From Eledone cirrhosa (Eukaryota): a DNA stretch of 64,000 nt. Of this stretch, positions 17,380 to 45,477 are shown piece after piece. The stretch lies in the NCBI GenBank assembly GCA_964016885.1, contig OZ024741.1, forward strand, positions 117,180,001 through 117,244,000, given 5' to 3'. The notes under the pieces are model-generated. The model was not told the origin of the DNA. It searched no databases and saw nothing but the letters and a program-made list of their open reading frames with translations. Each line of letters opens with the position of its first letter. Positions within the stretch are counted from its first letter, which is position 1. Position numbers and translations under genes: made by a program.

Positions 17380-17384
17380 GCAGG

Positions 17385-17828: not shown

Positions 17829-17837
17829 TATAATAAT

Positions 17838-20089: not shown

Positions 20090-20671
20090 CTGGTGGTGGA
20101 GGTGTTGTTGCACAAATTGTATTCTTCAGTTGATCTTCTATTGTTTTCAAAGCATTGTAATCTTTTACCATGAAAACATTATGCCTTTTGTTCGAAGAAA
20201 TCATCTCTAACTCCTTCCTAGCAATATGGGTTCCTACTCCGATGGAAAATATATTAATATGAGTCAAGTGAATCAATTTGGATTCTCGGACAGTTTGGAA
20301 TGCTTGATTAGAGTTTCCGTCAGTCAGAACCACCAAGATCTGTGAGGCGTTCGCTCTTCCTCCGTTCTTAGCGCTGAATCCTTCTGTTCTGACAAAATGG
20401 AGTCCCTTGGCTGTCAATGTCAGTCCATGATCGTACTTGACAGTTTTGATGGCTTTAATAAGAGAATCTTTATCGGAGAATTTATTCAATGGAATTTGAT
20501 TCCTAACTTTCGTTGAAAAGGTTATCACTCCAACCTGGAGATTATGCGAGCCAACAATAGAATCGGCGACAAACTGACTGACGAAAGCCAAAGCTTCTCT
20601 AAAATGTGCAATTTTCACACTGCCAGAGCTGTCAAGTAAGAAAAGAATATCGGTAGGCTCAGCACCACATC
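20090..20671 (-). CDS. Exon 4: VWA domain 2
   Basis: tttatttcag| acceptor; CGAEPTDILFLLDSSGS..GLTLT..VLTDG..SIGVG..ICATTPPPP; donor G|GTAACT; phase 1-1. Confidence 0.92.
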
Positions 20672-20893
20672 CTGAAATAAACAAAAGAAAAATATATATC
20701 CCAATTAATAATCCCTAAAAAATTTACCAACGTATGTTCGATTTTTCTAGAAAATATAAAATTAAGAAACATGTTTGATTTTTCTAGAAACAAAACTAAT
20801 TAATTAATTTTTAAAAAAGAATTGCAACCATAGTCTCCTGTCCTTTTAACTTTCTGCTTTGGATTAAATATTCATAATTTTATAACGTAAAAC

Positions 20894-23268: not shown

Positions 23269-24082
23269 TTGTTGTAGTGGCTGTTGTGGTATTCTTTACA
23301 TAGCCACAGTCTTCAATTTGTCACACCTTTAACGTATGTTTATTACTCTAAGAATTCATTTATCGATTTATCGATATCATCTTATCGAATGCTTGTGCAA
23401 GCTTCTGAGGATCCCTCTTTCGAGAGATGCTGCTATAGCTTCAACTTCGATTTTATTCACTATTATCATTATTATTCTCTCCTAGCCTTTATAATTAATT
23501 AATTGATTATTGATTGATTAATTTGTGTTTGTTTGATAACCTGGTCGAGAGCTTCAATTCAGAAGCTGTGAATTGATCCCTTTGTTCACACTTCGAATTT
23601 TCCCGCCAAAAACCTGGATTAATTCTTCTTCATTCCCTGAGAAAGAACACGTGACCCCGCTGCTATAGTTGATACTATAGTATTCGCATCAGTCACATTG
23701 CACCGAGCGGATGGCACACAGAACGAAATTCCTGTTGATAAAGTGATTCCGCGTTCGATCTTGATACAGTACAGATTGGCGCATTGCGCAATCTATGCCG
23801 TTGATTTAGGATTTCACAGAAACTATTCGAAGATACTTTCTAATATCTATGGATTGGGTCCAGGTTCGTATTAACTTGTTTGTATTTTCGTTGTTGCAGT
23901 GGCTGTTGTGAAATTCTTTACCTATTCCCAGTTTTCAATTTGTCAACGTATGTTTATTAATCTAAGATTTAATTTATCGATATATCGATATCATCTTATC
24001 GAGTACTTGTGAAAGCTTCTAAGGACTGTTCTTTCGAGAGATGCTGCTACAGCTGCAACTTCGATTTTACTCATTATCATTA
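23269..24082. repeat. ~200-bp diverged direct repeat pair (23269-23472, 23891-24082)
   Basis: ttgttgYagtggctgttgtg..tctttcgagagatgctgcta..cttcgatttta shared by both copies. Confidence 0.8.
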
Positions 24083-24219
24083 ATGGCTAAAAATGACTCG
24101 ATGTAATTGTTTTAGTCTCAATACATGATCGCAGATCAAGTAATATCCCAGACAAGTGCTATTCCGAAAATTAAACGAAAATACAAAATGAGTGAAAAGG
24201 CTGTGCCATATATATATAC

Positions 24220-24449
24220 CTTGCCAATGGCGGCCAATAAACTGGCTTTGTCGTGGTACTTATTCAAGTGGAACTGGTTGTGCACTTTACTACTGTAAGT
24301 TACTAAGCTTATTTGGAGATGATTAGGACCAATGACAGAGTCGCTCACAATTTGTTTTACAAAGCTCAATTCCTTCGCAAACTCGGCCTGTGACATGCTG
24401 GAAGATGCATCCACCAAAAACATCATGTCAACTTTTGTGGTTCCACAAT
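24220..24449 (-). CDS. Exon 2: VWA domain 1, N-terminal half
   Basis: T-rich tract and tag| acceptor; (D)CGTTKVDMMFLVDASSS carries the MIDAS DxSxS motif; ends AAG|GTATAT, phase 0. Confidence 0.9.
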
Positions 24450-24649
24450 CTACATATAAAAAAATAATAATAGTATTAGTATTAATAAGGTTTTCTGAAA
24501 GTCACGTCTATGTTTATGTATGAGTAAATGTGGAGCACTGGACTGGCACCTATTTTAACGACACCTGGAGGAAATGTAAAGTTGGCCTCAATTAGAATTG
24601 AACTCAGGATTCACAGACAGGCAACGTGACCAATATATAAAAATAAAAT

Positions 24650-24805
24650 AATTGGTTCTACTTTTGGCACTTTATTTTATCAATCCCGGAAAGATAAAAA
24701 GAAAAGTTGATCCCGGTTGGATTCAACCTCAGAATGTAAAGTGTCAGGACAAATACCGTAAAGCATTTTGTTCGACTTTCGAAAGATTCTGCCAACCTAC
24801 CACCC

Positions 24806-24806
<1 letters not shown>
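24650..24806 (-). mobile_element. Old SINE copy
   Basis: Degenerate central domain and tRNA head. Confidence 0.6.
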
Positions 24807-24889
<83 letters not shown>

Positions 24890-24891
<2 letters not shown>

Positions 24892-26512
24892 GATAAATGC
24901 GCCAAAGCAACGTTCACGACTAGATAAATGCGCCAAAGCAACGTTCACCAGAGGAAAGCTGCTGAAGAGTTCAGACATTAATCTTGATCGGGGGAACGTG
25001 ATAAGAGAACTTGATCAAGAAAAAACTTACAAATATCTAGGTGTTTGTGAAGGAGACGGAATCAAGCACTCGACAATGAGGGAAAGGATAAGGAAGGAAT
25101 GTTACCGCAGAGTAAGAGCAATCTTAAGAACGGAATTGAATGCAAGGAATAGGATCGATGCCATAAACACGCTTGCCATACCAGTAGTAACCTACAGTTA
25201 CAATGTCATCATCTGGTCAAGCACAGAGATCCGTAGGCTCGATACAAAAATTCGAAAATTCTTAACCATGCACAGAATGCATCACCCTAAGGCAGATATA
25301 GATAGAATATATCTCCCTAGGAAAGAAGGAGGACGTGGGTTAATCCAGTTAGACATTGCGTTGAAAACTGCAACAATTGGATTATCTACATATCTAAGGG
25401 AATCACATGATTGGATGATCAAACTCGTTTTGAAACACGAAAGCATCAAAAGATCATATTCCATTACAAAAGATGCACAAAGATACAGTAATGGACTACA
25501 AATTTCAGAAGTCCCATTTACTGCTGAAATGGAAAACACAGAAAAAGCAAAGCAGGTAAAAGTAACTGCAAAGAAAGAATTGCTACAGAAACTGGCTGAG
25601 AAATGGCAAGAAAAGCCTCTGTATGGAAAATACCCAGAGCGAGCTAACAATCCTGATGTTGACAAAACTTTAACCCATCAGTGGTTGGCATCCTCTGGAC
25701 TGAAATCGGAGACTGAAGGACTGATTATATCAGCACAAGATCAGTGTCTGCCAACAAAAAATTACCAAGCCAACATAATAAAAAAATGGATGCAGCCCAT
25801 TATGCCGTGTATGCAAAAAACAACCAGAGACCATTGACCATATAATTTCAATGTGCAGTCCTATAGCTCCAACCGAATACCTAAACAGGCATGACAGAGC
25901 TGCACAATACATACATTGGATAATGTGTAAGCATTTTGACCTGCCCCATCAAAAGAATTGGTGGGAGCATCAACCACCTCCCATACCTGAAAAAGATCAC
26001 ATCTCAATCTTGTGGAACTTTAGCATCCAAACAGACCGAAAAATAGATGCAAATAGACCTGATATAATATTGAAGGACTTTAAAAAGAGGGTATGCCTGC
26101 TAATTGATATGTCTGTTCCAATAGACAAGAATGTATCTATAAAAACATTTGAAAAATTGAGCAAGTATAAGGACCTGGAGATAGAAATTGGAAAAATGTG
26201 GAAATTGAGAACTAAAACAATACCAGTGGTTGTAGGCGCTCTGGGAATGATACCTAAGGGGTCTAATGATTACTTATCGCAGATCCCAGGAAACCCGCGT
26301 ATAGGAGAAATACAAAAGATAGTACTAATTGGAACTGCCCATATACTAAGGAAGATTCTGTCAATATAAGTACATCACAAGTCTAAACACTAAAGATGCA
26401 TGTGTGAGTATGCATGTTCTTCCTTGAACATGGCGGACCTTGTTGTCTCTTGAGGTCACTGGTTGTGACTTGGTGATAACTCGTATGAACATAAAGCAAG
26501 ATAAATGCAACT

Positions 26513-26513
<1 letters not shown>
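24890..26513 (+). mobile_element. R4/Dong family B, 5'-truncated (RT C-terminus, CCHC, RLE)
   Basis: YKYLG..DIDRIYLPRKEGGRGL..CRVC..H..C..RHD..RPDI..D..KY; one frameshift at an A-run near 25780; (TAA)n on both sides. Confidence 0.92.
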
Positions 26514-26579
<66 letters not shown>

Positions 26580-26826
26580 TTTCTTTATTAACCACAAGGG
26601 TTTACATAAAGTAGACATTAAGGACAGTGCAGGACAATGCAGGACGGTACAAATGGGCATTTCTGCGTGTAAAAAACAAAAACAGAGGATGTAACAAAAA
26701 TAACAATGAAAAATTCCCCAATAGGGGGGAGACTTCGGAGGGACATTTGTGGAGAAAGCCCAGTAAAAAGCCACAATGACCCTGACCACCAAGGCAAGTG
26801 CCCTCTCCCAGTTTTCCACCTTTAGT

Positions 26827-29800
26827 TTACAGATATATACTCAGAGTCGGCCCATTCACTCGGGCCATTCTTGCTTCTCTCACCCATCTTTCAACAAAAT
26901 GCTGGGAAGAGAGCACTTCCCTCTCTACTCTGATTTTCCTTTTCAAATGAAATTTGAAAAAGTCAATCAGAGCATCACCGAAGAGGTAAGTGCTCGTCTT
27001 CAGCCCTTTCAAACGTGTCCACCATACTATCTCTTTCACCATGGCCACCAGACAGATAAAAACTGCCTGCCCTTCCCGGCTAAAGGAGGAGGGCGGGGCA
27101 ATCCTCACGATGGACTCAGATGATAGCTGGATCCGTCCTAAACGCGACAGCAGGTGTTCGACATAAACCCACAAGTCAGCAATTTTCGGACACTGGACGA
27201 GTGCGTGCAGGACGGTTTCGTCGCCCTGCGCGCATCTCGGACATACCCGGCTGACGGCACCTCCATGCCTGTAGAGTTTATCCCGAACTGGCAAGGCTCC
27301 TCGGTAGCACTGCCAGGCCAGAGATTTCTGGAAGTTGTCCATAGGCCCTGGCCCGAAAGTTCTTCCGAAGAGATTGGCTAGTTGATTTTCGTCGACGCCT
27401 AGAGTTTCCCCAAGTACGTCGTCGCTCTTCCCCTCCACTAATCCTCTATAGAACGCCGAGGTGGAGTTTCCACCGATCACATTGCCCGATTGGTCGAGGG
27501 CTGTGAGCGCCTGAAGACATTCCAGTCTCCAGGCGCTCCCTCTCGGTCTTCGCTTGACCCAGGACTGCAGCTCCGTCAAGGAAACGAGCTGGGGAAAAAC
27601 GCGTCTAGCAAACGGCGACCACACCTGATCACCGTCGAGGAAGAGGTGGAGATGTCGTAGCCTGAGCGCGTGCCTGCGCATCATCAGCCACGGCATGCCC
27701 AGCCCTCCACGTAGCGGGTGTTGACAACAGATGGACCGCCTGACCATCGGAGCACGTCCCTTCCACAAAAAGCGAAAGAGCAAACGCTCCAGCGCAGTCA
27801 GGCGAGGCTTAGGACAAGGTACGACGGTTAGGCGGTAGCAGATGACAGACGCGATGTACGCGTTAGCCACCTCCGCTCGACCTTTCAGGGATAGCTTCCT
27901 CTCCGCCCATTTCTGGGTGAGAGAAGCCACCCTGCTCGTCACCTCGTCCCAGTTTTTGTCCGTCTGGAGGTCCGGACCGAACCAGACCCCTAGCAATTTA
28001 ACCGGTCCGTCCGTCCAGCGCCCGACGACGCTGTTGGACGGCATGGACCTGCCTCTCCAGGTGCCGAGCTGCAGGCCCACTGACTTTTCCTGGTTGATCA
28101 TTGCTCCTGTCACCGCTTCGTATTCTCTTAGTGTAGTGCCGATCGCCTCGATGTGTTTGGCGTTCGACACCACTACGGTGACATCGTCCGCATATGCTGA
28201 CACGGATCTTCCGCATCCTAGTTCGCGGACTCCCCTCAACGTCTCCAGTTTGTGCAGTAATGGCTCGAGAGTCAATACGTACAAGAGGGACGAGAGGGGA
28301 CATCCTTGGCGGACCGAGCGCATGATGTTGAACGGTTCCGACAGGTGACCGTTCACTCTCACCACAGAGCAGATGTCGCTGTGCATGGCAGCGATCCAGC
28401 CTCTGAAGACGGGCCCAAAGCCAGCCGCCCTCAGGACTGCCGCTAGGTAACGATGGTCGACCCTATCGAAAGCTTTCGACTGATCTAAATTGATCAAGGA
28501 CCCACCCGTGCCAGGTTCCCTAGCTACCCTCTCTACGATGTATCGCATGAGGTGGAGGTTGTCGTGGATGGATCTGTCGGGAATGGCGCATGTCTGCGCC
28601 TCTCCCACCAGACCACCAACGACAAGCGCCAACCTCTTTGCTAGCACCTTGGCCAAAATCTTAAACTCTGTGTTTAGCAGAGTTATGGGCCGGAAATTGT
28701 CTATGTTATCCCCCTTGTTCGGATCCTTTCTCAGCAGTGCCACCGCTCCTCGGCTCACAGAACTGGGAATTCTCCCGTTCTGTTGCCAGTTGCAGTAGAC
28801 GTCCGCCAAGAGGCCTCCGAACAAGTCTGGCATCTGTACGTAAAGTTCATAGGGCAGACCATCCAAACCAGGCGATTTACCCCTTGTGCAGCCAGTCATT
28901 GCCTCCCGTACTTCAGCGGCTGTTATCGGCTTTTCGCAACACTTCGCCTCACTTTTCCTGGTTGATCATTGCTCCTGTCACCGCTTCGTATTCTCTTAGT
29001 GTAGTTCCGATCGCCTCGATGTGTTTGGCGTTCGACACCACTACGCTTACATCGTCCGCATATGCTTACACGGATCTTCCGCATCCTAGTTCACGCAGGA
29101 CCCCCCCCCCCCTCAACGTCTCCAGTTTGTGCAATAATGGCTCGAGAGTCAATACGTACAAGAGGGACGAGGGGGGATATACTTGGCGGACCGAGCGCAT
29201 GATGTTGAACGGTTCCGAAAGGATGCCGCTGTGCATGGCAGCGATCCAGCCTCTGAAGACGGGCCCAAAGACAGCTGCCTTCAGATAACGATGGTCGACC
29301 CTATCGAAAGCTTTCGACTGATCTAAATTGATCAAGGACACATCCGTGCCAGGTTCCCTAGCTACCCTCTCTACGATTTATCGCATGAGGTGGAGGTTGT
29401 CGTGGATGGATCTGTCGGGAATGGCGCATATCTGCGCCTCTCCCACCAGACCACCAACGACAAGCGCCATCTCTTTGCTAGCAGCTTGGCCAAAATCTTG
29501 AACTCTGTGTTTAGCAGAGCTATGGGCCTGAAATTATCTATGTTATCCCCCTTGTTCGGATCCTTTCTCAGCAGCGCCACCGCTCCTCGGCTCACAGAGC
29601 TGGGAATTCTCCCGTTCTGTTGCCAGTTGCAGTAGACGTCCGCCAACAGGCCGCCGAACAAGTCTGGCATCTGTACGTAAAGTTGATAGGGCAGACCATC
29701 CAAACCAGGCGATTTACCTCTTGTGCAGCCAGTCATTGCCTCCCGTACTTCAGCGGCTGTTATCGGCTTTTCGCAACACTCCGCCTCAGTGGCCGAGAGC

Positions 29801-31081
29801 CGCGGCAGTCCGTCGAGGTAGACACTAAAGTCCATCCCTCGATCCGGCCCGCCGATTCCCCCGAACAGCTGAGCGAAGTGTCGCTGAAAAGTTTCACACA
29901 TTTGCCCGGGATCGAGTAGTATGCGCCCGTCGTGGTCCACCAAAGACCTGATCGTGGATTTGTTGCCACGACGCGCCTCCACCACTCGGGCCCATTGAAC
30001 GGCTTTCGTCCCCTTGTGTCTGAGAGCACGCACCCCAGCTCTGACAACGCAGCCTTCGTGCTTTGAATTGAAGAATTGGTCAAGGGCCAATTTCGCCGCA
30101 AGTACGTCGGTCGCGATGCCTTTGCTAAGCGCCTCGTCTAATTTTCTAACTAGTTCTCCCTCTGCTCTATTTTTCTGTATAGCTAAAGCCTTACTAAACC
30201 TAATGGACTCTATTCTAATCGCTCGTTTCAGAGCAAACCACCACTTGTTGTTGACGATGGGCCCCGTCAACGCTCGCTTAACTAATTCGCTAATCCGGTC
30301 TCTGTAGGCCTTGCGCGCTGGTAAGGACGCGTTTAGCTTCCAGTAGCCCTGTTCCTCGTCTATGAAGCCTATCTAAGTCAAGCACAGAGATCACGAATTT
30401 GTGGTCCGTGTAGCTGACTATCTTGAATTGTGGACAGCCTATGCTAGACCTATCTATTTCCCTACAAAATACTTTATCTTGATATGATCTGGATGACCCT
30501 ATGCGGTTTGTCCAAGTCCACATTGGCACATTCGGGAAATCCAATCGGTACCTGTCAGACAGTTCAAAACGCCTGAGCAGGTTGGTGAGGCTCTTACACC
30601 CTCCTCCCTTCTCCGCTAATCCCACACAGTCCCAGCGTGCATCTAATATCCCGTTCCAGTCGCCCACTAACACTAAAGAGCGATACGTTCCTAGAAAGGT
30701 CTTCTGACGCGGGAAGAAATCAGGCCGCCCTGCTTCTGTCGGGGCATAGACGGCCACTAGCCTGAAAGCTTGCCTGTCTCCGCTGGTCACGCCCAGCACC
30801 ACCAACTTACCTTCTGGGTCCAGGAAGATGGACCGTATGGCGAGATCCAAACCTTTCCGAAAAAGCACAGCAACTCCTCCCCCCGATCCAGGACGGCTGG
30901 GAGATGCGTACACATCGTAGCCGCCGAAGATCGGTGCAAAGCCCCGTGCTTCGGAGATTCTCGTCTCGCTGATGGCCACTACATCTATGTTTAGTGACAT
31001 GAGGTCGTTGAGCAGGTGGCCCTGTTTCCATGACGACGCCAAGCCACGCGCATTTATGCTGCCTATTCTGAATGAGGTCAT
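26827..31081 (-). pseudogene. Tx1 ORF2 (APE-RT-Cys) with internal RT duplication
   Basis: ORFs 31081-30290, 30270-29371 and 29341-29066, plus an open 690-aa ORF at 28899-26827. Confidence 0.9.
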
Positions 31082-31115
31082 GTTGAAATGGAGTGGAAAA
31101 GATGGGAAAGACCAT

Positions 31116-33077
31116 TTACCTTACTTCTCGTAGAGGAAGGATGGTTTCTCCATCCTTTTCACTGCTCGTGGCCTCCTCCGGAAGGATGTCCTTATAAATC
31201 CTCCTAGAGAGTGCTTGTCGGGAGTCTCCGATGTCTTTGGGGAATTTTTGTTTTAGTGTCGTGTACGTTTTCTGTGTGATGCGAGTGATTTGTATGTGTG
31301 GAGGTGGTGTGAACTTTTGGGGTGTTGTGTAGTCTTTTTCTGTGATGCTGGTGTTGTGTTGGATGTAGTGTAATAGTTGGTTGTTGTTAAAATTTAATGC
31401 TGTGTAGTGTGTATCGTTTTGGTTGTTTTGTTTTGTTTGCGTTTGTTGTGGGTTTGTTTCTGTTTCGCTTTTTGGTGACTTTTGTGGTGTTGGTGATGGT
31501 GGTGTTGGGGTTAATGATGGTGATGGTGTTGGTGTTTGTGGTGATGGGGTTGGTGATGCTGGTGTGGATGGTGGCATAGCTGTCCTAACTTTTTTGTTTG
31601 ATAGTTTATTTGTTTCCTTCTGTATTTTGTTTTTGGAGGGGGAAGGAAGAGAATTTTTTTCTTTTTTGGCTTCTTTTTCTTTTTTTCTTTTTTCCTGATA
31701 CCATTTCCCACTCCTCGTCGTCACAATCTGTCTCCAGTTGCGATAGGTCGGGGAGTCGAAAATCCTCCACAGGCGTTGGTTTTAGTTGTGGCGTGGTGGA
31801 TGGTGTAGGCGCTGGTGCTAGTTCTGGCGCGTTGGGTGGTGGTGGTGGTGTTGGTTTTTCTACTGTTGCTGGGGTTGTTACTGCTACAGTTATATTCTGT
31901 TGTTGCTGCTACACTTGTTGCTGCCATTTCTGCTGCTGGTGGTGTTGATGGTTGAGTCACCGGGGTGGGTAAGAGAGGTGGTCACAATTTGTTAGCCTGA
32001 GGGCAGAAAGCCCTTAGGTGGGTTCCTTCACCACAAACGACACACCTAGGCCTTCTACTCTCGACGATTACGGTGAGGTGGCTGCCGTCAGTGAGGTCTA
32101 TTACCTCTGGGATCTCAATGCTTTCTTGGTCCGCTTGGATCAGGAGCTCCATCCCAGATCCTGACCAATTCTCCTGCTTTTCTTTTGCTATTTCTATTAT
32201 TTTGGTGTTGGCCTCGATGCCGGCGAGGACGGCAGCCATTAGCCAGGGAATTTCGATGGCCGGTGGAACGTGGGTCACCCTGATCTTTAGGAGTCTCTGG
32301 CCACAATAGCTTGGGACGAGTGTGAACTCGTCGCTTCTTAATGGGGCCATGGAGTGCTCTCTGGCCTCCTGGGGTGTTCCAAAGAACACGTCCACGGTTC
32401 CATATTTCTGCCCGCGTCTGATGTGGTTTTTTTTTGCCCATACATGTCCCAAAGCTTTTTGGATTTGGGACTCGGATGCCCGTTCCACTCGGCGCGATTT
32501 TATGTTAATCGTCCGATAAGACACGGTGCATAGGCGCCGATGCTCCATTTTATTTTTTTTTGGGGGGGGGGGGGGGCTGACCCTGTACCCATCTTTCTTT
32601 ACCATTCTCTTGGCTTCATCTAATTCCTCCTGAGTTACCTGGATTGTTTCGTATTTTTTGGCTGCGTGGCAAACGACACGGTGTTGTTATTCTCATTGTT
32701 GTTGTTGCTGTTGTTGTTATTGTTAATTTTGTTATTGTTATTTTTAGTTTCAGTTGTGGTGGTGGTGGTGGTGGCGTCAGTGGTGTTCGGTGTGGAAGAG
32801 TCGATTCTGGGTGAATCGATTTCGATGTCACGAGATAATTTATTTTTTTCTTTTCTTTCTGTTGTCGCTGTGGTGGTGATGGGGTGGCGGCTTCAACACC
32901 TGCAGTCATTGGTAATGGCGGGAAATGAATGTCTGCATGAGACCCATTTAAATTATTGCTACTGCTTATATTTTTAGTGTTGGCAAACGTAGTAATATTT
33001 ACAATGGTGGTGTTGGTGTGAGATGTTAGTTTGTGAGGAAGGCTCTCAGCTGTTTGGTGTAGCTGTGAGTCGTCCAT
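31116..33077 (-). pseudogene. Tx1 ORF1 (frameshifted)
   Basis: Low-complexity N-terminus, RRM-like region, RRPRCVVCGEGTHLRAFC knuckle and K/P/T-rich tail. Confidence 0.8.
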
Positions 33078-33291
33078 GATTTTTTCAAAGAAATTTTTTG
33101 TTTGATAATTATAAAAGTTTAAATTTTGGGCTCAAGGTCCCAATCTTTTTGAGTGTCCTTTTCCGAAAGCAAATTTTGTGACTTTATAAACAGTTAACAA
33201 CAAAAATTTTCCATAAATGGCAATTTTAAACAAACGAAAACAACAAACCTTTGCGGAGCTCACGATGATACGATTTCCTACGTAGGTCGCC

Positions 33292-33330
<39 letters not shown>

Positions 33331-33334
<4 letters not shown>

Positions 33335-33856
33335 GAAAAAGATCACATCTCAATCTTGTGGAACTTTAGCATCCAAACAGACCGAAAAATAGATGCAAAT
33401 AGACCTGATATAATATTGAAGGGCTTTCAAAGGAGGGTATGCCTGCTAATTGATATGTCTGTTCCAATAGACAAGAATGTATCTATAAAAACATTTGAAA
33501 AATTGAGCAAGTATAAGGACCTGGAGATAGAAATTGGAAAAATGTGGAAATTGAGAACTAAAACAATACCAGTGGTTGTAGGCGCTCTGGGAATGATACC
33601 TAAGGGGTCTAACGACTACTTATCGCAAATCCCAGGAAACCCGCGTATAGGAGAAATACAAAAGATAGTACTAATGGGAACTGCCCATATACTAAGGAAG
33701 ATCCTGTCAATATAAGTACATCACAAGTCTAAACACTAAGGATGCATGTGTGAATATGTGTGTTCTTTCTTGAACATGGCGGACCTTGTTGTCTCTTGAG
33801 GTCACTGGTTGTGACTTGGTGATAACTCGTATAAACATAAAGCAAGATAAATGCAA
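33331..33856 (+). mobile_element. R4/Dong family B short copy
   Basis: WNFSIQTDRKIDANRPDI RLE plus 3'UTR, between (TAA)n tracts. Confidence 0.9.
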
Positions 33857-33875
33857 ATAATAATAATAATAATAA

Positions 33876-34900
33876 TAGACTCTACCTAAGGAGATCTGAG
33901 GGTGGAAGAGGTCTTATCAGCATAGAGGACTGTGTTCAGATGGAGAAAAACAACCTATACAAATACGTGACCTATAGTAAGGAGCCAATGCTCAGAGCTG
34001 TACTGAAGGAGGGGACAGTAGGCCAGGGGATATCCAAGGAGGAAATAACATCAAGGAGGAAGAGCAGCCTTAAGGGAAAATCCCTTCATAGTACCTTCTT
34101 TGAGAAAACTGAATTTAGAGATCCACAGACATGGAACTGGTTGAGAAGAGGAGACCTCAAAAAGGCTACAGAAGGAATGCTAATGGCTGCGCAGGAGCAG
34201 GCCCTCAAAACGAAGTGGTTGAAGCACCATATCTACAAGGAGGAGGCTAGCCCACTGTGCAGGATCTGTGGAGAGAGAGAGGAGACTGTGGCTCACATTG
34301 TGTCCGAGTGTAAACACCTAGCCCAGACCCACTATAAGGGCTGGAGACACGATGTGATGGGCAGGGTGATCCACTGGCACCTGTGCAAAGTAAACAATCT
34401 ACCACATTCTGAGAAATGGTATGAGCATAGGCCAGAGGCGGTGATGGAGAACAGTCAGGTGAAGGTGCTGTCGGATTTTAGGATACAGACGGACAAAAAA
34501 CTGGAACACAATAGACCTGACCTGGTGGTTGTGGACAAAGAAAAAAGATCGTGCCTGATTGTGGATGTGGCCTGCCCGTTCGACACGAGAGTGCAAGAGA
34601 AGGAGAGGGAGAAAATTAACCGATACCAGGACCTAAAGTGGGAGGTGAAAAGGATTTGGAACTGCCATGAAGTCAAAGTGATCCCGATTGTCATAGGCGC
34701 ACTGGGGACTATCTCCAAAGGTTTCCAGGGATGGTTAAAGAAAATCGGCCCCTTCACGCTTTTTGGAACGCTTCAAAAGGCATGCTTGGAACAGCAAGAA
34801 CCCTCCGATACGTCCTGAATATCTGAGGCTGCAGGTAGTGGCTTGATATTCAATCCAACGGACTTTCCAGTTAACCAACATCAATGACTGAGATTCAAGC
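33876..34900 (+). mobile_element. R4/Dong family A 5'-truncated copy
   Basis: DRLYLRRSEGGRGL..CRICGE..RHD..RPDL; (TAA)n tail. Confidence 0.92.
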
Positions 34901-34938
34901 AATAACAATAATAATAATAATAATAATTGCCATAATAA

Positions 34939-35722
34939 ATCAGCACAAGATCAGTGTCTGCCAACAAAAAATTACCAAGCCAACATAATAAAAAATGGAT
35001 GCAGCCCATTATGCCGTGTATGCAAAAAACAACCAGAGACCATTGACCATATAATTTCAATGTGCAGTCCTATAGCTCCAACCGAATACCTAAACAGGCA
35101 TGACAGAGCTGCACAATACATACATTGGATAATGTGTAAGCATTTTGACCTGCCCCATCAAAAGAATTGGTGGGAGCATCAACCACCTCCCATACTTGAA
35201 AAAGATCACATCTCAATCTTGTGGAACTTTAGCATCCAAACAGACCGAAAAATAGATGCAAATAGACCTGATATAATATTGAAGGACTTTAAAAAGAGGG
35301 TATGCCGGCTAATTGATATGTCTGTTCCAATAGACAAGAATGTATCTATAAAAACATTTGAAAAATTGAGCAAGTATAAGGACCTGGAGATAGAAATTGG
35401 AAAAATGTGGAAATTGAGAACTAAAACAATACCAGTGGTTGTAGGCGCTCTGGGAATGATACCTAAGGGGTCTAATGATTACTTATAGCAAATCCCAGGA
35501 AACCCGCGTATAGGAGAAATACAAAAGATAGTACTAATGGGAACTGCCCATATACTAAGGAAGATTCTGTCAATATAAGTACATCACAAGTCTAAACACT
35601 AAAGATGCATGTGTGAGTATGTATGTTCTTTCTTGAACATGGCGGACCTTGTTGTCTCTTGAGGTCACTGGTTGTGACTTGGTGATAACTCGTATGAACA
35701 TAAAGCAAGATAAATGCAACTG
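34939..35722 (+). mobile_element. R4/Dong family B 5'-truncated copy
   Basis: SAQDQCLPTKNY..CRVC..RHD; premature TAG at 35486-35488; (TAA)n tail. Confidence 0.92.
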
Positions 35723-35741
35723 TAATAATAATAATAATAAT

Positions 35742-38224
35742 AGAGTCAGTCAGTATAAACAGAACCGCATGTTCGACAACAACCAGAAGATGCTGTTTGC
35801 ACAGCTTGAGGGGAAAGAAAGAGGCAACGACTTGATCCCTGAGGCGGAACAAACTAAAACATTCTGGAGAGGAATATGGGAGCAGGATGTTAGACACCAG
35901 GCAGGGTGGATTGAGACAGTACAGAGGGAGATTGGTGAGCAGGCACACCAACAAACTGATTTGAGTATCACAGTTGAAACTCTTAAGGGGCAGGCCAAAA
36001 AACTAACCAACTGGAAATCACCAGGCGCAGATGGTGTGCAGGGGTATTGGTATTAAAAATATAACATCCCTCCACCCGAAACTGACAACCATGTTCAATG
36101 ACTGCTTGATGTCAGGTGAGGTACCAGAGTGGTTGACAAAAGGTACCACAGTTCTGATAATGAAAGGCAGAATCAAGAGTAATGATGTTACCAACTATAG
36201 ACCTATCACATGTCTGTCCGTAATGTGGAAACTGTTGACGAGCATTGTGTCTGAGGAAATCTACCATCACCTCCACACAAACAACTTGTTACCGGACGAA
36301 CAGAAAGGATGCCGAAAGAAGTCACGTGGTACAAAGGACCAGTTACTTATTGATAAGATGGTAATGCGGAACTGCAGGAGGAGACACACTGATCTTGCCA
36401 TGGGATGGATAGACTACAGAAAGGCATTTGACATGGTGCCTCATTCTTGGATCACCAAAAGCCTGGAGATCTTCAAGGTGGCAGATAACATCAGACAGTT
36501 GTTGGGCAAGAGTATGAGGTCCTGGGAAACAGAGTTGACATCAACTGGAGAATCCTTGTGAAGCGTGAAGATCAAGAGGGGTATCTTCCAGGGAGATAGC
36601 CTGTCCCCTCTGTTGTTTGTCCTTGCCCTGATGCCCCTGACCAGTGTACTGCGAAAAGTGAGAGCAGGATACAGGTTGGGAAAGGGAGGGCTTACCATCA
36701 ATCACCTCCTCTACATGGACGATCTTAAGCTCTTCAGGAAGAGTGAGAAGGAGTTGGATGTGCTTGTTGACACTGTCCGTATTTTCAGCAGTGATATATG
36801 TATGCAGTTTGGTATTAGTAAGTGTGGAGTCATTGTGATGAGGAGGGGTATGTTGAGCAGAAGTAACGGAATCCAGATACCAACAGGTGAGATGATAAAG
36901 GAAATTGACTCTGAGGAAGGATACAAGTATTTGGGCGTTCTGGAGGCTGATGGCATAAAGAACAAAAAAATGAAGGAATTGTTAAGAAATGAATACATTC
37001 GGAGAGTAAGGAGCGTATTGAAGTCACATCTGAACAGCAGAAATGCCATAAGCGCAGTAAATTACCGAGCTGTGTCTATTATTAGGTACAGTGCGGGAAT
37101 TCTGAGATGGAATGTTGCTGAACAAAAAGAAATGGATAGGAAGACTAGGAAGCTTTTGACTATCTACAACATGTTCCACAAGAGGAGTGATGTCGATAGA
37201 CTCTACCTAAGGAGATCTGAGGGTGTAAGAGGTCTTATCAGCATAGAGGACTGTGTTCAGATGGAGAAAAACAACCTACACAAATACGTGACTGATAGTA
37301 AGGAGCCAATGCTCAGAACTGTACTGAAGGAGGTGACAATAGGCCAGGGGATGTCCAAGGAGGAAATAACATCAAGGAGAAAGAGCAGCCTTCAGGAAAA
37401 ATCCCTTCATAGTACCTTCTTTGAGAAAACTGAATTTAGAGATCCACAGACATGGAACTGGTTGAGAAGAGGAGACCTTAAAAAGGCTACAGAAGGAATG
37501 TTAATGGCTGCGCAGGAGCAGGCCCTCAAAACGAAGTGGTTGAAACACCATATTTACAAGGAGGAGGCTAGCCCACTGTGCAGGATCTGTGGAGAGAGAG
37601 AGGAGACTGTGGCTCACATTGTATTCGAGTGTAAACACCTAGCCCAGACCCACTATAAGGGCTGGAGATATGATGTGATGAGCAGGGTGATCCACTGGCA
37701 CCTGTGCAAAGTAAACAATTTACCACATTCTGAGAAATGGTATGAGCATAAGCCAGAGGCGGTGATGGAGAACGATCAGGTGAAGGTGCTGTGGGATTTT
37801 AGGATACAGACGGACAAGAAACTGGAACACAATAGACCTGACCTGGTGGTTGTGGACAAAGAAAAAAGATCGTGTCTGATTGTGGATGTGGCCTGCCCAT
37901 TCGACACGAGAGTGCAAGAGAAGGAGAGGGAGAAAATTAACCGATACCAGGACTTAAAGTGGGAGGTAAAAAGGATTTGGAACTGCCATGAAGTCAAAGT
38001 GATCCCGATTGTCATAGGCGCACTGGGGACTATCTCCAAAAGTTTCCAGGGGTGGTTAAAGAAAATCGGCCCCTTCACGCTTTTTGGAACGCTTCAAAAG
38101 GCATGCTTGCTGGGAACATCAAGAACCCTCCGATACGTCCTGAATATCTGAGGCTGCAGGTAGTGGCTTGATATTCATTCCAACGGACTTTCCAGTTAAC
38201 TAACATCAATGACTGAGATTCAAG

Positions 38225-38226
<2 letters not shown>
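35742..38226 (+). mobile_element. R4/Dong family A long 5'-truncated copy (RT, CCHC, RLE)
   Basis: NYRPITCL, DYRKAFDMVPH, QGDSLSP and YMDD motifs; 528-aa open stretch to ..RYVLNI*; long (TAA)n tail at 38226-38316. Confidence 0.95.
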
Positions 38227-38316
<90 letters not shown>

Positions 38317-39747
38317 GGGAAGAAGACGCACATGGTGGAAAGAAGGTCATGAAATCGCTCCCGTAAGTTTTTGATTTTTAACATATTTAAATCAATTGTG
38401 AAATAACAATTCTTAGTACAAATGATGCATAAAGCACCAGACTCAAATCTCAGGAAAATTCAGATCCATAATATATTGTTATATCGCTCAAATATTCAAT
38501 TTTGTAATATACATTTTACATTCAAAAAAGAAAATGGTTATAAATGGAAGAAAACCCCCTCTGTCTACACTATATAGAACAGCCAAATAACAGCAATTTC
38601 ACCAACACCACAAACTAGATACACCACCTACCCCATCACTCCTCTGTGTACACTAAATACAACAGCCAGATAACGGCAATTTCACCACCACCACCACCAC
38701 CACCACCACCACCAATCCCAGCATAATAATTATAATTACTATTATTATTGTCTCAAGTTTTCACAAAATGTTTAATTCCAATATTAAGTAAATATGTCAA
38801 CACATATACGCGACTAACCGCATAGATTCACCGATCAAACAAAAATACAGTCTAATCAACAAAACTCAGTAACGACAAGGCCATCACTACAGTCACCGCC
38901 GCCACCACTCATCCATCATTAATACCACTATCCCATCACCGCCGCCACCACTCCTTCATTGCTACCACCGCTATTCCCCCATTACCTTCTGTTAACTTAC
39001 GAAAGGGGAAGATGGCGGTATCACTAGACAATATTAATAAACAATATTAATATTTAATTTTGGATCAGGAATGTTAGAGTCGAAAAGGAGAAAAATGGCA
39101 AAATGACTAAATAGCTAAAGATAATTTCACCACCAACACCACCACCACTACCACGCTAAAAACTCTGGTCAAGTTGCCTCAACCGCTATTTCTACTCCAA
39201 CTTCAACACCATCACTACAGTACTACGATCACATCACCACCATCACTGCCTCATTATCGCTACCGCCGCTATTCTCTCCCACTACCTCCTGCTAGGTACT
39301 ACTAGCACAGTACCGCCACCACCACCACCACCACTGCCTCATTATCACTACCGCCGCTATTCTCTCCCACTACCCCCTGCTACATCATAGTGTCCCCACT
39401 AAAAGAGGAAGGCATCAAAATATATAAATAGACTGAATTGATGACCCGGTCAAAATCAAAATACCAAAAATCAAAATCAAAGCAGCACAGCAACAACGAA
39501 AAACGTAAAGAAAAGAAAAATGAAGAGAAAAACAAACAGACGGACAGAGAAGGGAAGGGAAAAACTAAGTCAGACATTCAAACACTACATCACTACATTA
39601 CAATGAAACTTATGCTTATTCATTTTTTTTTGGGGGGGGGGGGGGGGTGCCTGTTTGTTTGTTTATTTATGTTCGTGATAATGCCACACAAAAATCACCG
39701 GTGGTTATGCAACCATACATTCGCCAATCCTCGATAAGAGTGTTTAA

Positions 39748-41886
39748 ATGTCGAACCTAAACAGTTCGAATAACGGTGAAATGGAGACTAGAATGTCATG
39801 TGACAGACTCTCACCCAACAGGTGCTCCCTGGCTCAGCAGCAGGGACCTGGCTGTCAACCAAATACTGCTGGTGTCGGAGGAAGAAGAAGAAGGAAAGGG
39901 ACCAGAACCAACTGGACGAAAGAATTGAATAGAACTGTTATGCAAAGTTACCTGAAGAGTAACCCCAAGAAGAAAGGCTATAGGAAACGGATGCATAACA
40001 TCTGGAACGAGATTGGTCTATTTAAATTAGATGAACAAAAATTGGCCGGGCAGGCTCGGGTAATAAGAACTAATGGGTGGATAAGCGAGCTGGAACTGGA
40101 GGAACTGAGCAGAGAGATTAGCTTGGAAATGGAGAGTGGAGTATGCCAGGCAAACGAGCCAGTGGGAAATGAAGGTGAAGAGGTCGAGAGAACGGAGGAA
40201 CCACCCGAAGCAGACAATGATCTGAATGCTGAGATAAATAATACCTGGAACAGAGATACGGCCACTGAGGAGATGAATGCTGACGGGCTAGGACAAGATT
40301 TGGTTGATATCCTAAACTTAGTGGTAGATGAATTGAACAATGATAGTGGGAAACCTATGACTATAAGATTTGTAGACAGGAAAAAGTTAAAAGAAACAAC
40401 AGCTAAGGTAAACAAAGTCATCCCATACCTTGAGACGAGGAGCCTTCACCAGTGCAACAATATCCTCAAAGCAACAGCAAATACGGTGAGTAAACTACTT
40501 GGTATAAAAGCGAGAGGAAACAACAAACAAGAAAGATCAGAGCCTTGGTGGAAGAAACGACTGAGTGGTCAAATCAGGGAAATGAGAAATGACATTGGAA
40601 AGCTTGAGTCCCTACTGAATGGGACACTAAAAAACATAGACACTAAAAATAGACTGGAAATAAAGTACAAAACTAGGAGGAAAAGGCTAAATATTATCAT
40701 AGAGAAACTGAAGCAACGCATTGTAGCAAAGAGTGCAAAAATCAGGCGATACGAGAACAGAGTCAGTCAGTATAGACAGAACCGCATGTTCGACAACAAC
40801 CAGAAGATGTTGTTTGGACAGCTTGAGGGGAAAGAAAGAGGCAACGACTTGATCCCTGAGGCGGAACAAACTAAAACATTCTGGAGAGGAATATGGGAGC
40901 AGGATGTTAAACATAATGACCAGGCAGTGTGGATTGAGACAGTACAGAAGGAGATTAGTGAACAAGCACACCAACAAACTGACTTGAGTATCACAGTTGA
41001 AACTCTTAAGGGGCAGGCCAAAAAACTAACCAACTGGAAATCACCATGCCCAGATAGTGTGCAGGGGTATTGGATTAAAAATATAACATCCCTCCACTCG
41101 AAACTGACAACCATGCTCAATGACTGCTTGATGTCAGGTGAGGTACTAGAGTGGTTGACAAAAGGTACCACAGTTCTGATAATGAAAGACCGAATCAAGA
41201 GTAATGATGTTACCAACTATAGACCTATCACATATCTGTCCGTAATGTGGAAACTGTTGTCAAGCATTATGTCTGAGGAAATCTACCATCACCTCCACAC
41301 AAACAACTTGTTACCGGACGAACAGAAAGGATGCCGAAAGAAGTCACGTGGTACAAAGGACCAGTTACTTATTGATAAGATGGTAATGAGGAATTGCAAG
41401 AGGAGACACACTGGTCTTGCCATGGGATGGATAGACTACAAAAAGGCATTTGACATGGTTCCTCATTCTTGGATCACCAAAAGACTGGAGATCTTCAGGG
41501 TGGCAGATAACATCAGACAGTTGTTGGGCAAAAGTATGAAGTCCTGGGAAACAGAGTTAACATCAACTGGAGAATCCTTGGGAAGCGTGAAGATCAAGAG
41601 AGGTATCTTCCAGGGAGATAGTCTGTCCCCTCTGTTGTTTGTCCTTGCCCTGATGCCCCTGAGCATTGTACTGCGAAAAGTGAGAGCAGGATATAGGTTG
41701 GAAAAGGGAGGGCTTACCATCAATCACCTCCTCTTCATGGACGATCTTAAGCTCTTCGGGAAGAGTGAGAAGGAGTTGGATGTGCTTGTTGACACTGTCC
41801 GTATTTTCAGCAATGATATATGTATGCAATTTGGTATTAGTAAGTGTGGAGTCCTTGTGATGAAGAGGGGTAAATTGAGCAGAAGT
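39748..41886 (+). mobile_element. R4/Dong family A copy with intact N-terminus, 3'-truncated
   Basis: Open ORF from the ATG: Myb-like WTKELN..GYRKRMHNIW..EQKLAGQARVI, PWWKKRL, and RT through FMDD; breaks at 41886. Confidence 0.93.
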
Positions 41887-41982
41887 CCTGAAATTATCTA
41901 CGTTGTCCCCCTTGTTGAGGTCCTTTCTCAGCAGCGCCACCGCTCCTCGGCTCACATAACTGGGAATTCCCCCGTTCTGTTG
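41887..41982 (-). mobile_element. 96-bp Tx1 RT fragment
   Basis: About 90% match to 29527-29622 (QQNG.IPS.VSRGAVALLRKD.NKGDN.DNFR). Confidence 0.85.
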
Positions 41983-42561
41983 AAAAATATCCTCGCTTGG
42001 CCAATCCACGAGAGTATCTTAGTCAGCGTATGAACTATTCAGCCAACACTCGTATACAACAGGTAAATAAAATGTATGATTTATAGTGATAACTTTAATT
42101 TATAGTGATAATTTTAATAAGATATATATTTCTGTGTTTCATTTACTTATATGAGGTTTACATTTTCTGTAATTTCGTTATTGTTTGAAATGGTCAGCTA
42201 ACTGTGTGTGTGTATGTGTGTGTGAGTGTGTGATTATGTATGTGCGTATGTTTGTAGATATATCTATATATAAGTTGTATAAGTGTCTCTTGTGAGTGTG
42301 TGTGTATATATATATATTTCTCTCTCTCTCACTCTCTCTCTCACTCTCTCTCTCTCTCTCACTCTCTCTCCCTCCCTCTCTCTATCTCTCTCTCTATATA
42401 TATACATATCACACACAGATACACACTCACACACTCATACACACACACACAGACTCACACACGTGTGTGTGTGTGATTATGTATGTATGCATGATGCATG
42501 CGCGTATGTATATAGATATATAGATATATAGATAAATTGTATAAATATATATCTCTCTCTC

Positions 42562-42947: not shown

Positions 42948-43053
42948 CTTGGGATGTAGACGGAGTGGTTAACATATATGGCAAAGAACTTCCATACTGG
43001 ACGGTCAAAATGACCAGTCCAACAATACTGAGCAATTGTGTTGGCATCCTCAT
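42948..43053 (-). CDS. Exon 1 (signal peptide) of secreted 3xVWA protein
   Basis: ATG at 43053 gives MRMPTQLLSIVGLVILTVQYGSSLPYMLTTPSTSQ with a hydrophobic N-terminus. The CAAG|GTAAAC donor is phase 1 and matches the next acceptor. A TATA/Inr pair lies just upstream. Confidence 0.8.
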
Positions 43054-43502: not shown

Positions 43503-45141
43503 ATATTATTATACTTGGGGAGGGTCATATTTGTGTAATATTGCCAGAATTAATAACAGAACACACTCACTGTTTGGTTGGTTTTCGCTTCTGTGTCTTT
43601 TATATCGGTTAATTTAATTTATTCGGTCCTCAATGTTACCATTGACTGACCAACGGTAAAAAATACAGATACAATATAGACACAAACACATATATATAGT
43701 CTATCAAAGTTCTTTCGTTGCACATCTGCAACATCGTCAGTGGTGCTTTATGTTTCCTCCCGTTGCATTGTATGCCTACGCCATCTTTATTTAGTTTGTT
43801 TATTTATTTATTTATTTGTTTATTTTTTGTCTTCTCTGCGCATGCGTTTGCGTGTGTGTATAGTGTTTTGTTTGATGTGTGTTCGTGTTTGGGTGACTGT
43901 GTATTGGTTAATGTATTCTATCTTAGTTTACTAGTGCGTGTTTATATGTTTGTTGTTATTGTGCTTGTGTATGTATTTCTTTATTTCTTTATTTCTTTAT
44001 TTCTTTCTTTATTTATTTATACTTTTCTTAGGTCAGTGTTGTTTGTTTGGGTGTTGTTGTTATTCCATTCATTTTTTCTGTTTAGCCTTGGCCTTCTAAG
44101 TTCTATTTCCCTGGCCTCTCTGATTTGCCTATCTGCTGGGTCATTTCTATGTTTAGATATTATTCTAACTTCTATGTTGTCTGTGTTACCGTTGTGTGGT
44201 TGTCTGGCATGTTCGTATAGTACTGAACCGTTTTTTCGTCCTTTTAGTTCCCCAGTGTTAGTCTATCCTTTCACGTATGCTACGAGCTGTCTCGCCTATG
44301 TATGTTGTTGTCATGTTTCTGCAAGTACCCTCTGTACATCTTATGCTATAGACTACATTTCTAGTTTTACAGTTTATCCGGGGGTTTACTTTACATATGA
44401 TACATTTCCTATTAGTACAGTGGGTTTTCTTAAAAGGGTAGGTTTTGCTGATCAGGGATTTTATGTTGGTTCCTGGCTTTTCTACCACCTTAATCTTTAA
44501 GTGGGTCTTTCTCAGGGCCTTTCTACACTGGTTAGCTAATTTCCCTTCAGGGGTAGCGTCCAGAAACATGACACTCTGGTATCTCTAGCTGTCGTACCAT
44601 GAGGTGGCTTTCCCTATCTTATGTCGAGTCCTATCTAAGCTATTCCATGATTTGCTCCTGTATAATGGGCAAATTCCTTTCATGTCCAGTTCTATGAGGG
44701 TCTTATACTTCTCCGTGGCTCCTTCGTATACTCTGATTCTGTCTCTTTGGTTGTAGCCAGAGAACTGCATGCGGTTGATGAAGTGTTGGATGTGTCTTTC
44801 CATTTCTGTTGGGTCGCACATGTGGGACACGTTCTTCATCACTCGTACCAAGTCTGCGATCAGAATATTAAACTTAGCACTACTGGACATTGCTGAGTTT
44901 TTGAGTATCAGGTATTTGGAGGCCATGGGTTTAGCATAGTGTGAGTGGAGAATTTGGGCTCTCTCGTCTATAGTGTTAATCCAGAGTTCCGTGTCTAATA
45001 CAGGTAGTCTATTGTTAGGGTGTTTGGAAGGGTAGTCGATAGTTACAGTTATACTCACAAGAGAAAACCAACCAAACAATGAGTGTGTTCTGTTATTAAT
45101 TCTGTAAATATTATTACACAAATATGACCCTCCCCAAGTAT

Positions 45142-45148
<7 letters not shown>
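43503..45148 (-). mobile_element. Penelope-like element, 5'-truncated, with ~80-bp inverted copy of its 3' terminus
   Basis: VTIDYPSKHP..LDT..MQFSGY..CTNRKCIIC..VVYSIRC..YIGETARS; terminal inverted repeats 43508-43586 and 45063-45148; lies in (TA)n. Confidence 0.9.
43703..43744 (-). ncRNA. Minimal hammerhead ribozyme (Penelope pLTR)
   Basis: CTGACGA-t-GTTGCA(GATG)TGCAAC-GAAA-GAAC-TT; weak stem I; degenerate homolog at 5762-5805. Confidence 0.65.
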
Positions 45149-45215
<67 letters not shown>

Positions 45216-45477
45216 ATTTATAAGTATGTATGTGTATATATATATATGCATATACATATACATGCATATACATATATAAACATGCATATACATATATGTA
45301 CATACATATACATATATATCCACATACACGCGCCCATGTATATAAATACATTTATAGGCGTGTGTATGTGTTTTGTTTTTATCTACTAATTCGTACACTT
45401 TAATGAGGTTGTTGGGAGAACAACATATGCCCAGAGATGAGCTGTTGCTGTTGCTGCTGTTACTGCTGCTGCTGCTG

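What the first reader, a model, noticed from the sequence alone, without database searches (positions are those of the whole stretch)
24808..41982. 17-kb retrotransposon stack on a (TAA)n landing pad in one intron
Seen order: (TAA)n-B-(TAA)n-Tx1(-)-(TAA)n-B-(TAA)n-A-(TAA)n-B-(TAA)n-A-(TAA)n-unknown 1.4 kb-A. All six R4-type copies face the same way, antisense to the host gene, and have different 5' truncation points, so they are independent insertions rather than a tandem duplication. Known: Dong/R4-clade RLE elements can target TAA repeats. Inference: each insertion regenerates target through its (TAA)n tail, giving a self-propagating array shared by two R4 families and an unrelated APE element. 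The array accounts for about 90% of intron 1.
Basis: partly seen in the sequence, partly recalled or inferred. Interest (0 to 1): 0.75.

Follow-up and report, generated by a model that had tools for sequence, protein, structure and literature searches.

The report
Retrotransposons stacked on both TAA strands
Eight separate jumping-gene copies of three families lie end to end at short TAA repeats and fill 93% of a predicted intron, two families facing one way and the third the other; stacks of this kind and size are common in this genome, likely because each insertion leaves fresh repeat on both sides for the next one.

Summary
The stack is real and built by independent insertions, but it is ordinary for this genome and three details need correcting. 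(1) The 'unknown 1.4 kb' is the 5' UTR of the last A copy, which is 5'-complete and 3'-broken, with no TAA at the right end. (2) The 'Tx1' is two copies of different age plus a 96-bp scrap. (3) Tx1 is itself a specialist of the repeat, on the opposite strand: 41 of 42 full 5' ends sit in (ATT)n, against 50 of 53 A/B 5' ends in (TAA)n and 0.3-0.5% by chance; an abundant SINE behaves alike. Around ten other long B copies, stacks measure 8-20 kb, median 14. TAA targeting is known for Dong/R4; the ATT target of a Tx1 lineage was not found in my searches. A and B (about 41% amino-acid identity) share and have exchanged their 5' heads, giving multi-copy hybrids. The scan had already noted both the polar stacks and the head exchange on other DNA of this genome. 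Long-read spanning and an empty site could not be tested.

The parts
24220..24449 (-). Predicted host exon 2 (first half of a VWA domain)
   Evidence: AG acceptor and GT donor, phase fits exon 1; further VWA exons at 20082-20714 and 14050-14694 hit Pfam VWA; no RNA evidence
24640..24805 (-). Decayed SINE whose head abuts the first TAA run; oldest member at the left edge
   Evidence: 70-76% identity to other copies
24806..24889 (+). (TAA)n run 1, 84 nt
24890..26513 (+). B1: 5'-truncated R4/Dong-type family B copy with a 31-bp duplication at its 5' junction
   Evidence: 99.4% to dispersed copies
26514..26576 (+). (TAA)n run 2, 63 nt; tail-to-tail junction of B1 and young Tx1
26577..28951 (-). 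Young 5'-truncated Tx1-type copy (RT, zf-RVT, 3' UTR with AATAAA)
   Evidence: Pfam RVT_1 and zf-RVT; 99.8% to L210
28952..33291 (-). Older Tx1-type copy, 5'-complete and 3'-broken (5' UTR, ORF1 with CCHC knuckle, APE domain, start of RT)
   Evidence: Exo_endo_phos, knuckle, about 95-96% to dispersed copies; overlaps the young copy by about 870 nt of element sequence at 90.5%
33292..33330 (+). (TAA)n run 3, 39 nt; head-to-head junction of old Tx1 and B2
33331..33855 (+). B2: 5'-truncated family B copy
   Evidence: 99.8% to L007, 97.1-97.7% to in-stack B copies
33856..33876 (+). (TAA)n run 4, 21 nt
33877..34900 (+). A1: 5'-truncated family A copy
   Evidence: 99.9% to L076, 96.2% to A2
34901..34927 (+). 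(TAA)n run 5, 27 nt with one TAA>CAA unit
34936..35722 (+). B3: 5'-truncated family B copy after an 8-nt spacer
   Evidence: 99.4% to dispersed copies, 98.9% to B1
35723..35740 (+). (TAA)n run 6, 18 nt
35742..38225 (+). A2: 5'-truncated family A copy (RT, CCHC, RLE)
   Evidence: best 97.1% elsewhere
38226..38315 (+). (TAA)n run 7, 90 nt
38316..39747 (+).
   Evidence: followed by the A ORF in 26 of the 30 loci; 81% to the B head over about 700 nt
39748..41886 (+). ORF of A3 from ATG into the RT domain, 3'-broken, no tail
41887..41982 (-). 96-bp Tx1 scrap fused to the broken end of A3
   Evidence: about 90% to Tx1 copies
42948..43053 (-). Predicted host exon 1 (signal-peptide-like 35 codons, phase-1 GT donor)
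   Evidence: prediction from sequence only

Best explanation
The 17 kb are eight independent LINE insertions of different ages (six R4/Dong-type on the TAA strand, two Tx1-type on the ATT strand, plus a SINE and a Tx1 scrap at the edges) that likely piled up because two unrelated endonucleases nick opposite strands of the same microsatellite and each insertion likely leaves repeat on both sides. Shown: strand-specific flanks genome-wide, clustering, age spread, target-site duplications for Tx1 and the SINE. Inferred: the RLE of A/B nicks the (TTA)n strand and primes on a UAA-ended RNA; the APE of Tx1 nicks the (AAT)n strand and duplicates roughly 11-19 nt of target; the SINE borrows Tx1 proteins; runs lengthen by tail synthesis or slippage. 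The two junctions without TAA (young/old Tx1 at 28951, A3/scrap at 41886) likely mark deletions at or after insertion. Growth was likely internal: the five youngest copies (99.4-99.9%) sit at runs between older members.
For: Full-length 5' ends: A 38 of 40 and B 12 of 13 next to (TAA)3+, Tx1 41 of 42 next to (ATT)3+ on its own sense strand; random 36-mers 64 and 95 of 20,000. 3'-intact, 5'-truncated copies: A 39 of 45, B 29 of 44, Tx1 8 of 15. Element ends touching a TAA run in searched loci: R4 314 + and 4 -, Tx1 126 - and 0 +, SINE 36 - and 0 +. Another member directly behind the tail in 25 of 29 B, 22 of 29 A, 20 of 29 Tx1 loci, while 40 arbitrary 10-kb stretches held A in 1, close Tx1 copies in 2, B in none. 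Runs between two elements median 36 nt (n=208), unoccupied runs in arbitrary DNA 15 nt (n=11), p=0.001. Non-repeat TSDs for Tx1 at L047, L064, L085; 30 of 34 full SINE copies end at ATT/TTA and 15 of 34 have an exact TSD of 8+ nt. Dong targets TAA (PMC1635306, PMC3812793, PMC7998251; passages).
Against: Loci were the best-scoring hits (at most 40 per search), biased to young copies. In the raw set only 11 of 60 'truncated' Tx1 5' ends had ATT (it includes low-complexity hits and annotation breaks), and 7 of 15 in the cleaned set lack three units, so truncated Tx1 copies fit less well. No informative TSD was found for A or B, so tail versus split run cannot be told apart. No nicking or RNA data. 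No empty allele seen. No short-read contig bridged the A3/scrap junction (the tool warns that holes prove nothing).
Confidence: 0.85

Rival explanations
1. Tx1 and the SINE have only a weak AT-rich preference (ATTAT), and long (ATT)n flanks arise afterwards by slippage of their short duplicated targets; only A/B are true microsatellite specialists that then colonise those runs.
For: Most SINE copies in arbitrary DNA sit at short ATTAT motifs, not long runs (27 of 74 full 5' ends with three units); three Tx1 copies lie in imperfect sites; the first run here abuts an old SINE.
Against: 41 of 42 full-length Tx1 5' ends are in three or more units; young Tx1 copies often sit directly in A or B tails (10 of 29).
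Confidence: 0.2
2. The array is a passive graveyard: insertions are tolerated in this intron and stack by selection or low recombination, with orientation set by the host gene.
For: Both stacks in this gene (15012-18056 and 24806-41982) have R4 copies antisense to it.
Against: Orientation follows the TAA strand in 476 of 480 element ends in searched loci; Tx1 with its AATAAA lies sense to the host; junctions fall at the repeat, not at random.
Confidence: 0.05
3. The array is an assembly artefact: repeat contigs joined at microsatellites.
For: No long reads available; short-read contigs do not bridge internal junctions and leave 41889-41915 uncovered at 99% likeness.
Against: No N in the window; flanks are consecutive in-phase exons of one gene; copies differ in age and breakpoints; strict polarity and 5'-junction duplications are not what mis-joins give; both unique flanks are reproduced by short-read contigs with 0-1 differences.
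Confidence: 0.04

Closest known systems
Dong (Bombyx mori), DongAg, DongBg, Darwinula Dong1/2, Rex6; R4 clade (PMC1635306, PMC3812793, PMC7998251: passages read)
   Same: Single ORF with RT, CCHC knuckle and RLE; insertion into (TAA)n, said to hold for most insects, molluscs and cnidarians.
   Different: Here two families of about 41% identity share the target with a Tx1 lineage, form multi-family stacks, and exchange 5' heads; no HDV-like ribozyme found at the 5' end, whereas B. mori Dong has one (PMC3774820, passages).
Microsatellite-specific Tx1 elements Kibi (TC)n, Koshi (TTC)n, crocodilian Tx1 in (TTCC)n/(TTTC)n, and SINEU mobilised by Tx1-Mar (PMC4494074: passages read)
   Same: Tx1-type ORF1/APE/RT element with a repeat target, TSDs, tandem insertions, and a SINE sharing the target.
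   Different: The target is (ATT)n, which is not among the targets named in the passages read, and it is the other strand of an RLE element's target.
TRAS and SART in (TTAGG)n of Bombyx mori (PMC7265360: passages read)
   Same: Two LINE lineages insert into one repeat in opposite orientations.
   Different: Both are APE elements of one clade at telomeres; here an RLE and an APE element share dispersed intronic and intergenic microsatellites.
5' UTR recruitment and exchange among mouse L1 families (PMC3600994: abstract only)
   Same: Families swap or recruit 5' UTRs.
   Different: L1 families are close relatives; A and B have no DNA-level similarity in the RT region apart from two short weak matches, yet carry heads as little as 0.01-0.03 changes per site apart.

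Membership tests
R4/Dong clade (families A, B) | One long ORF with RT followed by CCHC knuckle and restriction-like endonuclease (RHD, PD..D) | tested here: met
   1244-aa open frame in B copy L126 with YMDD, CCHC, RHD, PD..D; same motifs in A2; best solved relatives are R2 proteins, E 4e-25
R4/Dong clade (families A, B) | No N-terminal zinc fingers (unlike R2) | tested here: met
   No C2H2-type motif in the first 450 aa of B; A not scanned
R4/Dong clade (families A, B) | Insertion into (TAA)n in the TAA-sense orientation | tested here: met
   50 of 53 full 5' ends, 68 of 89 truncated 5' ends
R4/Dong clade (families A, B) | RT phylogeny groups with Dong/R4 | not tested
   No named Dong or R4 protein among the 120 listed homologues; placement rests on architecture and target
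R4/Dong clade (families A, B) | HDV-like ribozyme at the 5' end (shown for B. mori Dong and R4; not known to be universal) | tested here: inconclusive
   No Rfam ribozyme hit; no hit with my own pattern in six heads, but it had no positive control
R4/Dong clade (families A, B) | Divergent N-terminal SANT/Myb-like domain (PMC7998251) | not tested
   No profile comparison run
Tx1 clade | Two ORFs: ORF1 with CCHC knuckle; ORF2 with APE, RT and C-terminal zinc domain | tested here: met
   Knuckle; Exo_endo_phos, RVT_1, zf-RVT
Tx1 clade | Target preference (more than 20% of flanks, criterion of PMC4494074) with TSDs | tested here: met
   41 of 42 full 5' ends; three non-repeat TSDs
Tx1 clade | RT phylogeny groups with Tx1 rather than L1 proper | not tested
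   No tree built; label rests on domain layout and recall
Tx1-mobilised SINE | Same target and TSD pattern as the partner LINE | tested here: met
   ATT-starting TSDs and the same strand
Tx1-mobilised SINE | 3' tail shared with the partner LINE | tested here: inconclusive
   Only the last 6-7 nt look alike by eye (AGAAAC-ATT versus AGAAA[A/T]C-ATT); other LINE families were not compared

The most novel reading that the evidence does not exclude
The TAA microsatellite is a strand-partitioned, self-expanding niche whose head-to-tail stacks are also where co-targeting elements trade parts: R4 families only 41% identical have swapped 5' heads more than once, both hybrids replicated (head C on B in 25 of 25 loci examined, on A in 8), and the head itself may descend from a Tx1 leader.
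Probability: 0.35. Interest if true: 0.7.

Novelty: new variant of a known kind. Interest (0 to 1): 0.45.

Why it matters
As a locus it is ordinary for this genome. As a genome-wide pattern it gives a sequence-level cause for part of the intron and genome growth and of the TE hotspots described in octopods (PMC13282606 reports hotspots and recently active Dong-R4 and L1-Tx1 families; 'nested' does not occur in its main text), adds (ATT)n to the Tx1 targets that I could find in print, and offers a testable pair of unrelated endonucleases reading opposite strands of one trinucleotide repeat. The head exchange makes promoter swapping between distant LINE families testable.

Tried and rejected
Tandem duplication: rejected. 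Separate unknown 1.4-kb element: rejected. One full-length Tx1 with an internal duplication: rejected, since the halves differ in age. HDV-like ribozyme in the head: none found (no positive control). Head derived from Tx1 leaders, a lead from earlier notes: local scores 40-54 for the best pairs against shuffle means 24-31 and maxima 33-56, with shared GCTCC..GTAAG and CAAATAT motifs; suggestive only. TSDs for A/B: all automated hits were repeat or tail sequence. No relatives of the genome are held, so no empty site. Clade placement by named homologue failed; the Atlas gave no result. The neighbour tally was faulty and is replaced; rows L155 and L163 had wrong coordinates and are ignored. Paper searches for a Tx1 lineage in ATT/TAA repeats or for shared opposite-strand use and for 5' UTR exchange between distant LINE families found no such report; Kojima and Fujiwara 2004, Repbase entries and all supplements were not seen and may hold it.
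Full report
Observation. The window has no N, and seven (TAA)n runs of 84, 63, 39, 21, 27, 18 and 90 nt lie between 24806 and 38315. The host is a predicted secreted VWA-domain gene on the minus strand: a 35-codon signal-peptide-like exon (42948-43053) splices in phase to a VWA exon ending at 24449, so intron 1 is about 18.5 kb and the array fills 92.9% of it. This gene model rests on sequence alone. The genome is 3.0 Gb in 1796 contigs; that it is octopod-like is my recall of the SINE plus earlier notes, not a result of a call.

Corrections to the anatomy. The 'unknown 1.4 kb' begins right after a TAA run in other copies and is followed by the A ORF in 26 of the 30 loci; two more continue into B sequence, one jumps to A's 3' part and one was not typed. 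It is A's 5' UTR. The last A copy is thus 5'-complete and broken inside the RT domain at 41886, where it joins a 96-bp Tx1 scrap with no TAA. The Tx1 block is two copies: a young 5'-truncated one (99.8% to L210) and an older 5'-complete, 3'-broken one (about 95-96%), overlapping by about 870 nt of element sequence at 90.5% identity. A decayed SINE (about 75%) abuts the first run. The count is eight LINE insertions, one scrap and one SINE.

Independence and age. Best match elsewhere versus in the stack: B1 99.4 vs 98.9, B2 99.8 vs 97.7, B3 99.4 vs 98.9, A1 99.9 vs 96.2, A2 97.1 vs 96.2, A3 97.2 vs 95.1. The oldest pieces lie at the edges and in the middle, the five youngest at runs between them, which fits growth from inside (inference; best matches come only from the loci fetched).

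Targeting across the genome. I searched G000 with element ends free of TAA (40 scored candidates each, 30 loci kept) and fetched 20 longer B loci and 40 arbitrary 10-kb stretches. With the window's own five loci left out, full-length 5' ends had three or more units within 30 nt in 38 of 40 A and 12 of 13 B cases (TAA on the sense strand; A and B heads cross-match, so 50 of 53 pooled is the safer figure) and 41 of 42 Tx1 cases (ATT on the sense strand); intact 3' ends 58 of 60, 40 of 40 and 40 of 44; random 36-mers 64 (TAA) and 95 (TTA) of 20,000. Raw truncated ends scored 51 of 76, 37 of 53 and 11 of 60, a set that includes low-complexity hits and annotation breaks; limited to 3'-intact copies of 88%+ identity the figures are 39 of 45, 29 of 44 and 8 of 15, a few window copies included. 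Among ends touching a run, R4 copies faced the TAA strand in 314 of 318, Tx1 faced the other way in 126 of 126 and the SINE in 36 of 36; in arbitrary DNA 3 of 3, 3 of 4 and 8 of 9. At least three further, likely Tx1-type 5' ends recur at runs in the same polarity.

Stacking. Directly behind the tail lay another member in 25 of 29 B, 22 of 29 A and 20 of 29 Tx1 loci; the 400 kb of arbitrary DNA held A in one stretch (two copies, themselves stacked), close Tx1 copies in two, no B, and 61 SINE hits. Ten of the 20 long-B loci, extended to 30 kb, gave stacks of 7.9-19.5 kb, median 14.0, two at or above 17 kb (anchors were long copies, so this is biased upward). A second stack of the same polarity lies at 15012-18056 in this window. 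The locus is typical.

How target is renewed. Three Tx1 copies in imperfect sites carry non-repeat duplications of about 15, 19 and 51 nt, and at L064 no ATT repeat follows the element at all. Of 34 full SINE copies in arbitrary DNA 30 end at ATT/TTA and 15 have exact TSDs of 8 nt or more; one at 17838-18027 duplicates the end of a B copy with its first TAA units. So the APE side renews target by duplication. For A and B no informative TSD was found; their 3' ends run into TAA through shared imperfect lead-ins, which suggests a templated UAA end, and runs between elements are longer than free runs (median 36 vs 15 nt), but tail addition and run splitting with later slippage cannot be separated here. 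Which strand each enzyme nicks is inferred from orientation and standard target-primed reverse transcription.

Head exchange. A and B proteins are about 41% identical, with only two short weak DNA matches in the ORF, yet their first 400-700 nt are about 81% identical. In a tree of 57 heads (38 on A, 16 on B, 3 untyped) well-supported branches force at least 3-4 changes of body label; one 100/100 clade holds the B copy L126 and eight A copies, while another group of A heads lies about 0.4 changes per site away (alignment). A search across L126's head-body junction gave 40 matches at 94-100%; all 25 loci examined (the query included) continue into the B ORF and 23 have TAA at the 5' flank, so this hybrid replicated. 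That the exchange happens inside stacks, and that the head is a promoter, are untested. I saw the shared head before reading the scan's notes on it.

Assembly check. Short-read contigs of one sample, possibly the source, match the left flank (23857-24795, 0 differences) and the scrap/unique boundary (41927-42195, 1 difference) at single-copy-like depth, but none spans the stack and none covered 41889-41915 at 99% likeness. This neither confirms nor refutes the internal junctions.

Comparison with the literature. Dong and Rex6 insert into TAA repeats (PMC1635306, PMC3812793, PMC7998251; passages). Tx1 lineages target (TC)n, (TTC)n, (TTCC)n and (TTTC)n, and one mobilises SINEU (PMC4494074; passages). 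TRAS and SART use one telomeric repeat in opposite directions (PMC7265360; passages). B. mori Dong has a 5' ribozyme (PMC3774820; passages); I found none here, without a positive control. Mouse L1 families exchange 5' UTRs (PMC3600994; abstract). An Octopus vulgaris repeat annotation lists active Dong-R4 and L1-Tx1 families and hotspots, and mentions microsatellites only in a legend (PMC13282606; first third and passages). PMC3747384 (passages) added nothing. My searches found no report of an (ATT)n-specific Tx1 lineage, of opposite-strand sharing with Dong, or of head exchange between R4 families; key subscription papers, Repbase and supplements were not seen.

Verdict. Real, correctly sensed, partly mis-parsed. 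The self-feeding stack on TAA works like Dong targeting and like TRAS/SART sharing; the new variant is the cross-clade, opposite-strand use of dispersed microsatellites and the swapped heads. This scan has reported both on other DNA of the same genome (unreviewed notes, not counted as support). Interest 0.45.

Noticed in passing
window 15012-18056: Second, smaller stack in another intron of the same predicted gene: old A, young A, B and a SINE with an 18-nt TSD made of B's 3' end plus TAA; same polarity as the large stack.
   Followed up: partly
window 24890-24948; L038, L051, L133, L136, L142: Short duplications of element sequence at R4 5' junctions recur, sometimes with TAA between the copies; they likely reflect template jumps during second-strand priming.
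   Followed up: partly
window 38356-38368; Tx1-type heads at L129, L134: A GCTCC..GTAAG motif resembling a splice donor about 44 nt into the A/B head also appears near the start of some Tx1-type leaders.
   Followed up: partly
L206:1910-2926; L175, L176: Head-to-tail SINE arrays (six copies in L206) separated by ATT-starting TSDs: the same self-feeding habit on a small scale.
   Followed up: partly
L016, L113, L010, L015: Some R4 5' junctions lie in (GAA)n next to TAA; either a tolerated target or slippage of the head's own GAAGAAG start.
   Followed up: no
window 51400-57200: A second Tx1-like family (about 70% to the stack's Tx1, + strand) that is not flanked by TAA; it follows a long TC/TCTG-rich repeat at 50600-51400.
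   Followed up: no
window 26580-26600: The young Tx1's AATAAA lies sense to the predicted host gene inside intron 1 and could act as a premature poly(A) signal.
   Followed up: no
window 6655-7155 and 44585-45217: Two diverged ORF fragments (75% alike at the DNA level) with no Pfam hit, recalled as Penelope-like RT C-terminal regions.
   Followed up: no
L045, L059, L069, L079, L118, L134, L172, L210; L099, L117; L125, L129; L053, L088, L182, L198; L095, L104, L119: Further recurring element ends at TAA runs (three likely Tx1-type 5' ends and two unidentified ends), so the niche has more members than A, B, Tx1 and the SINE.
   Followed up: partly
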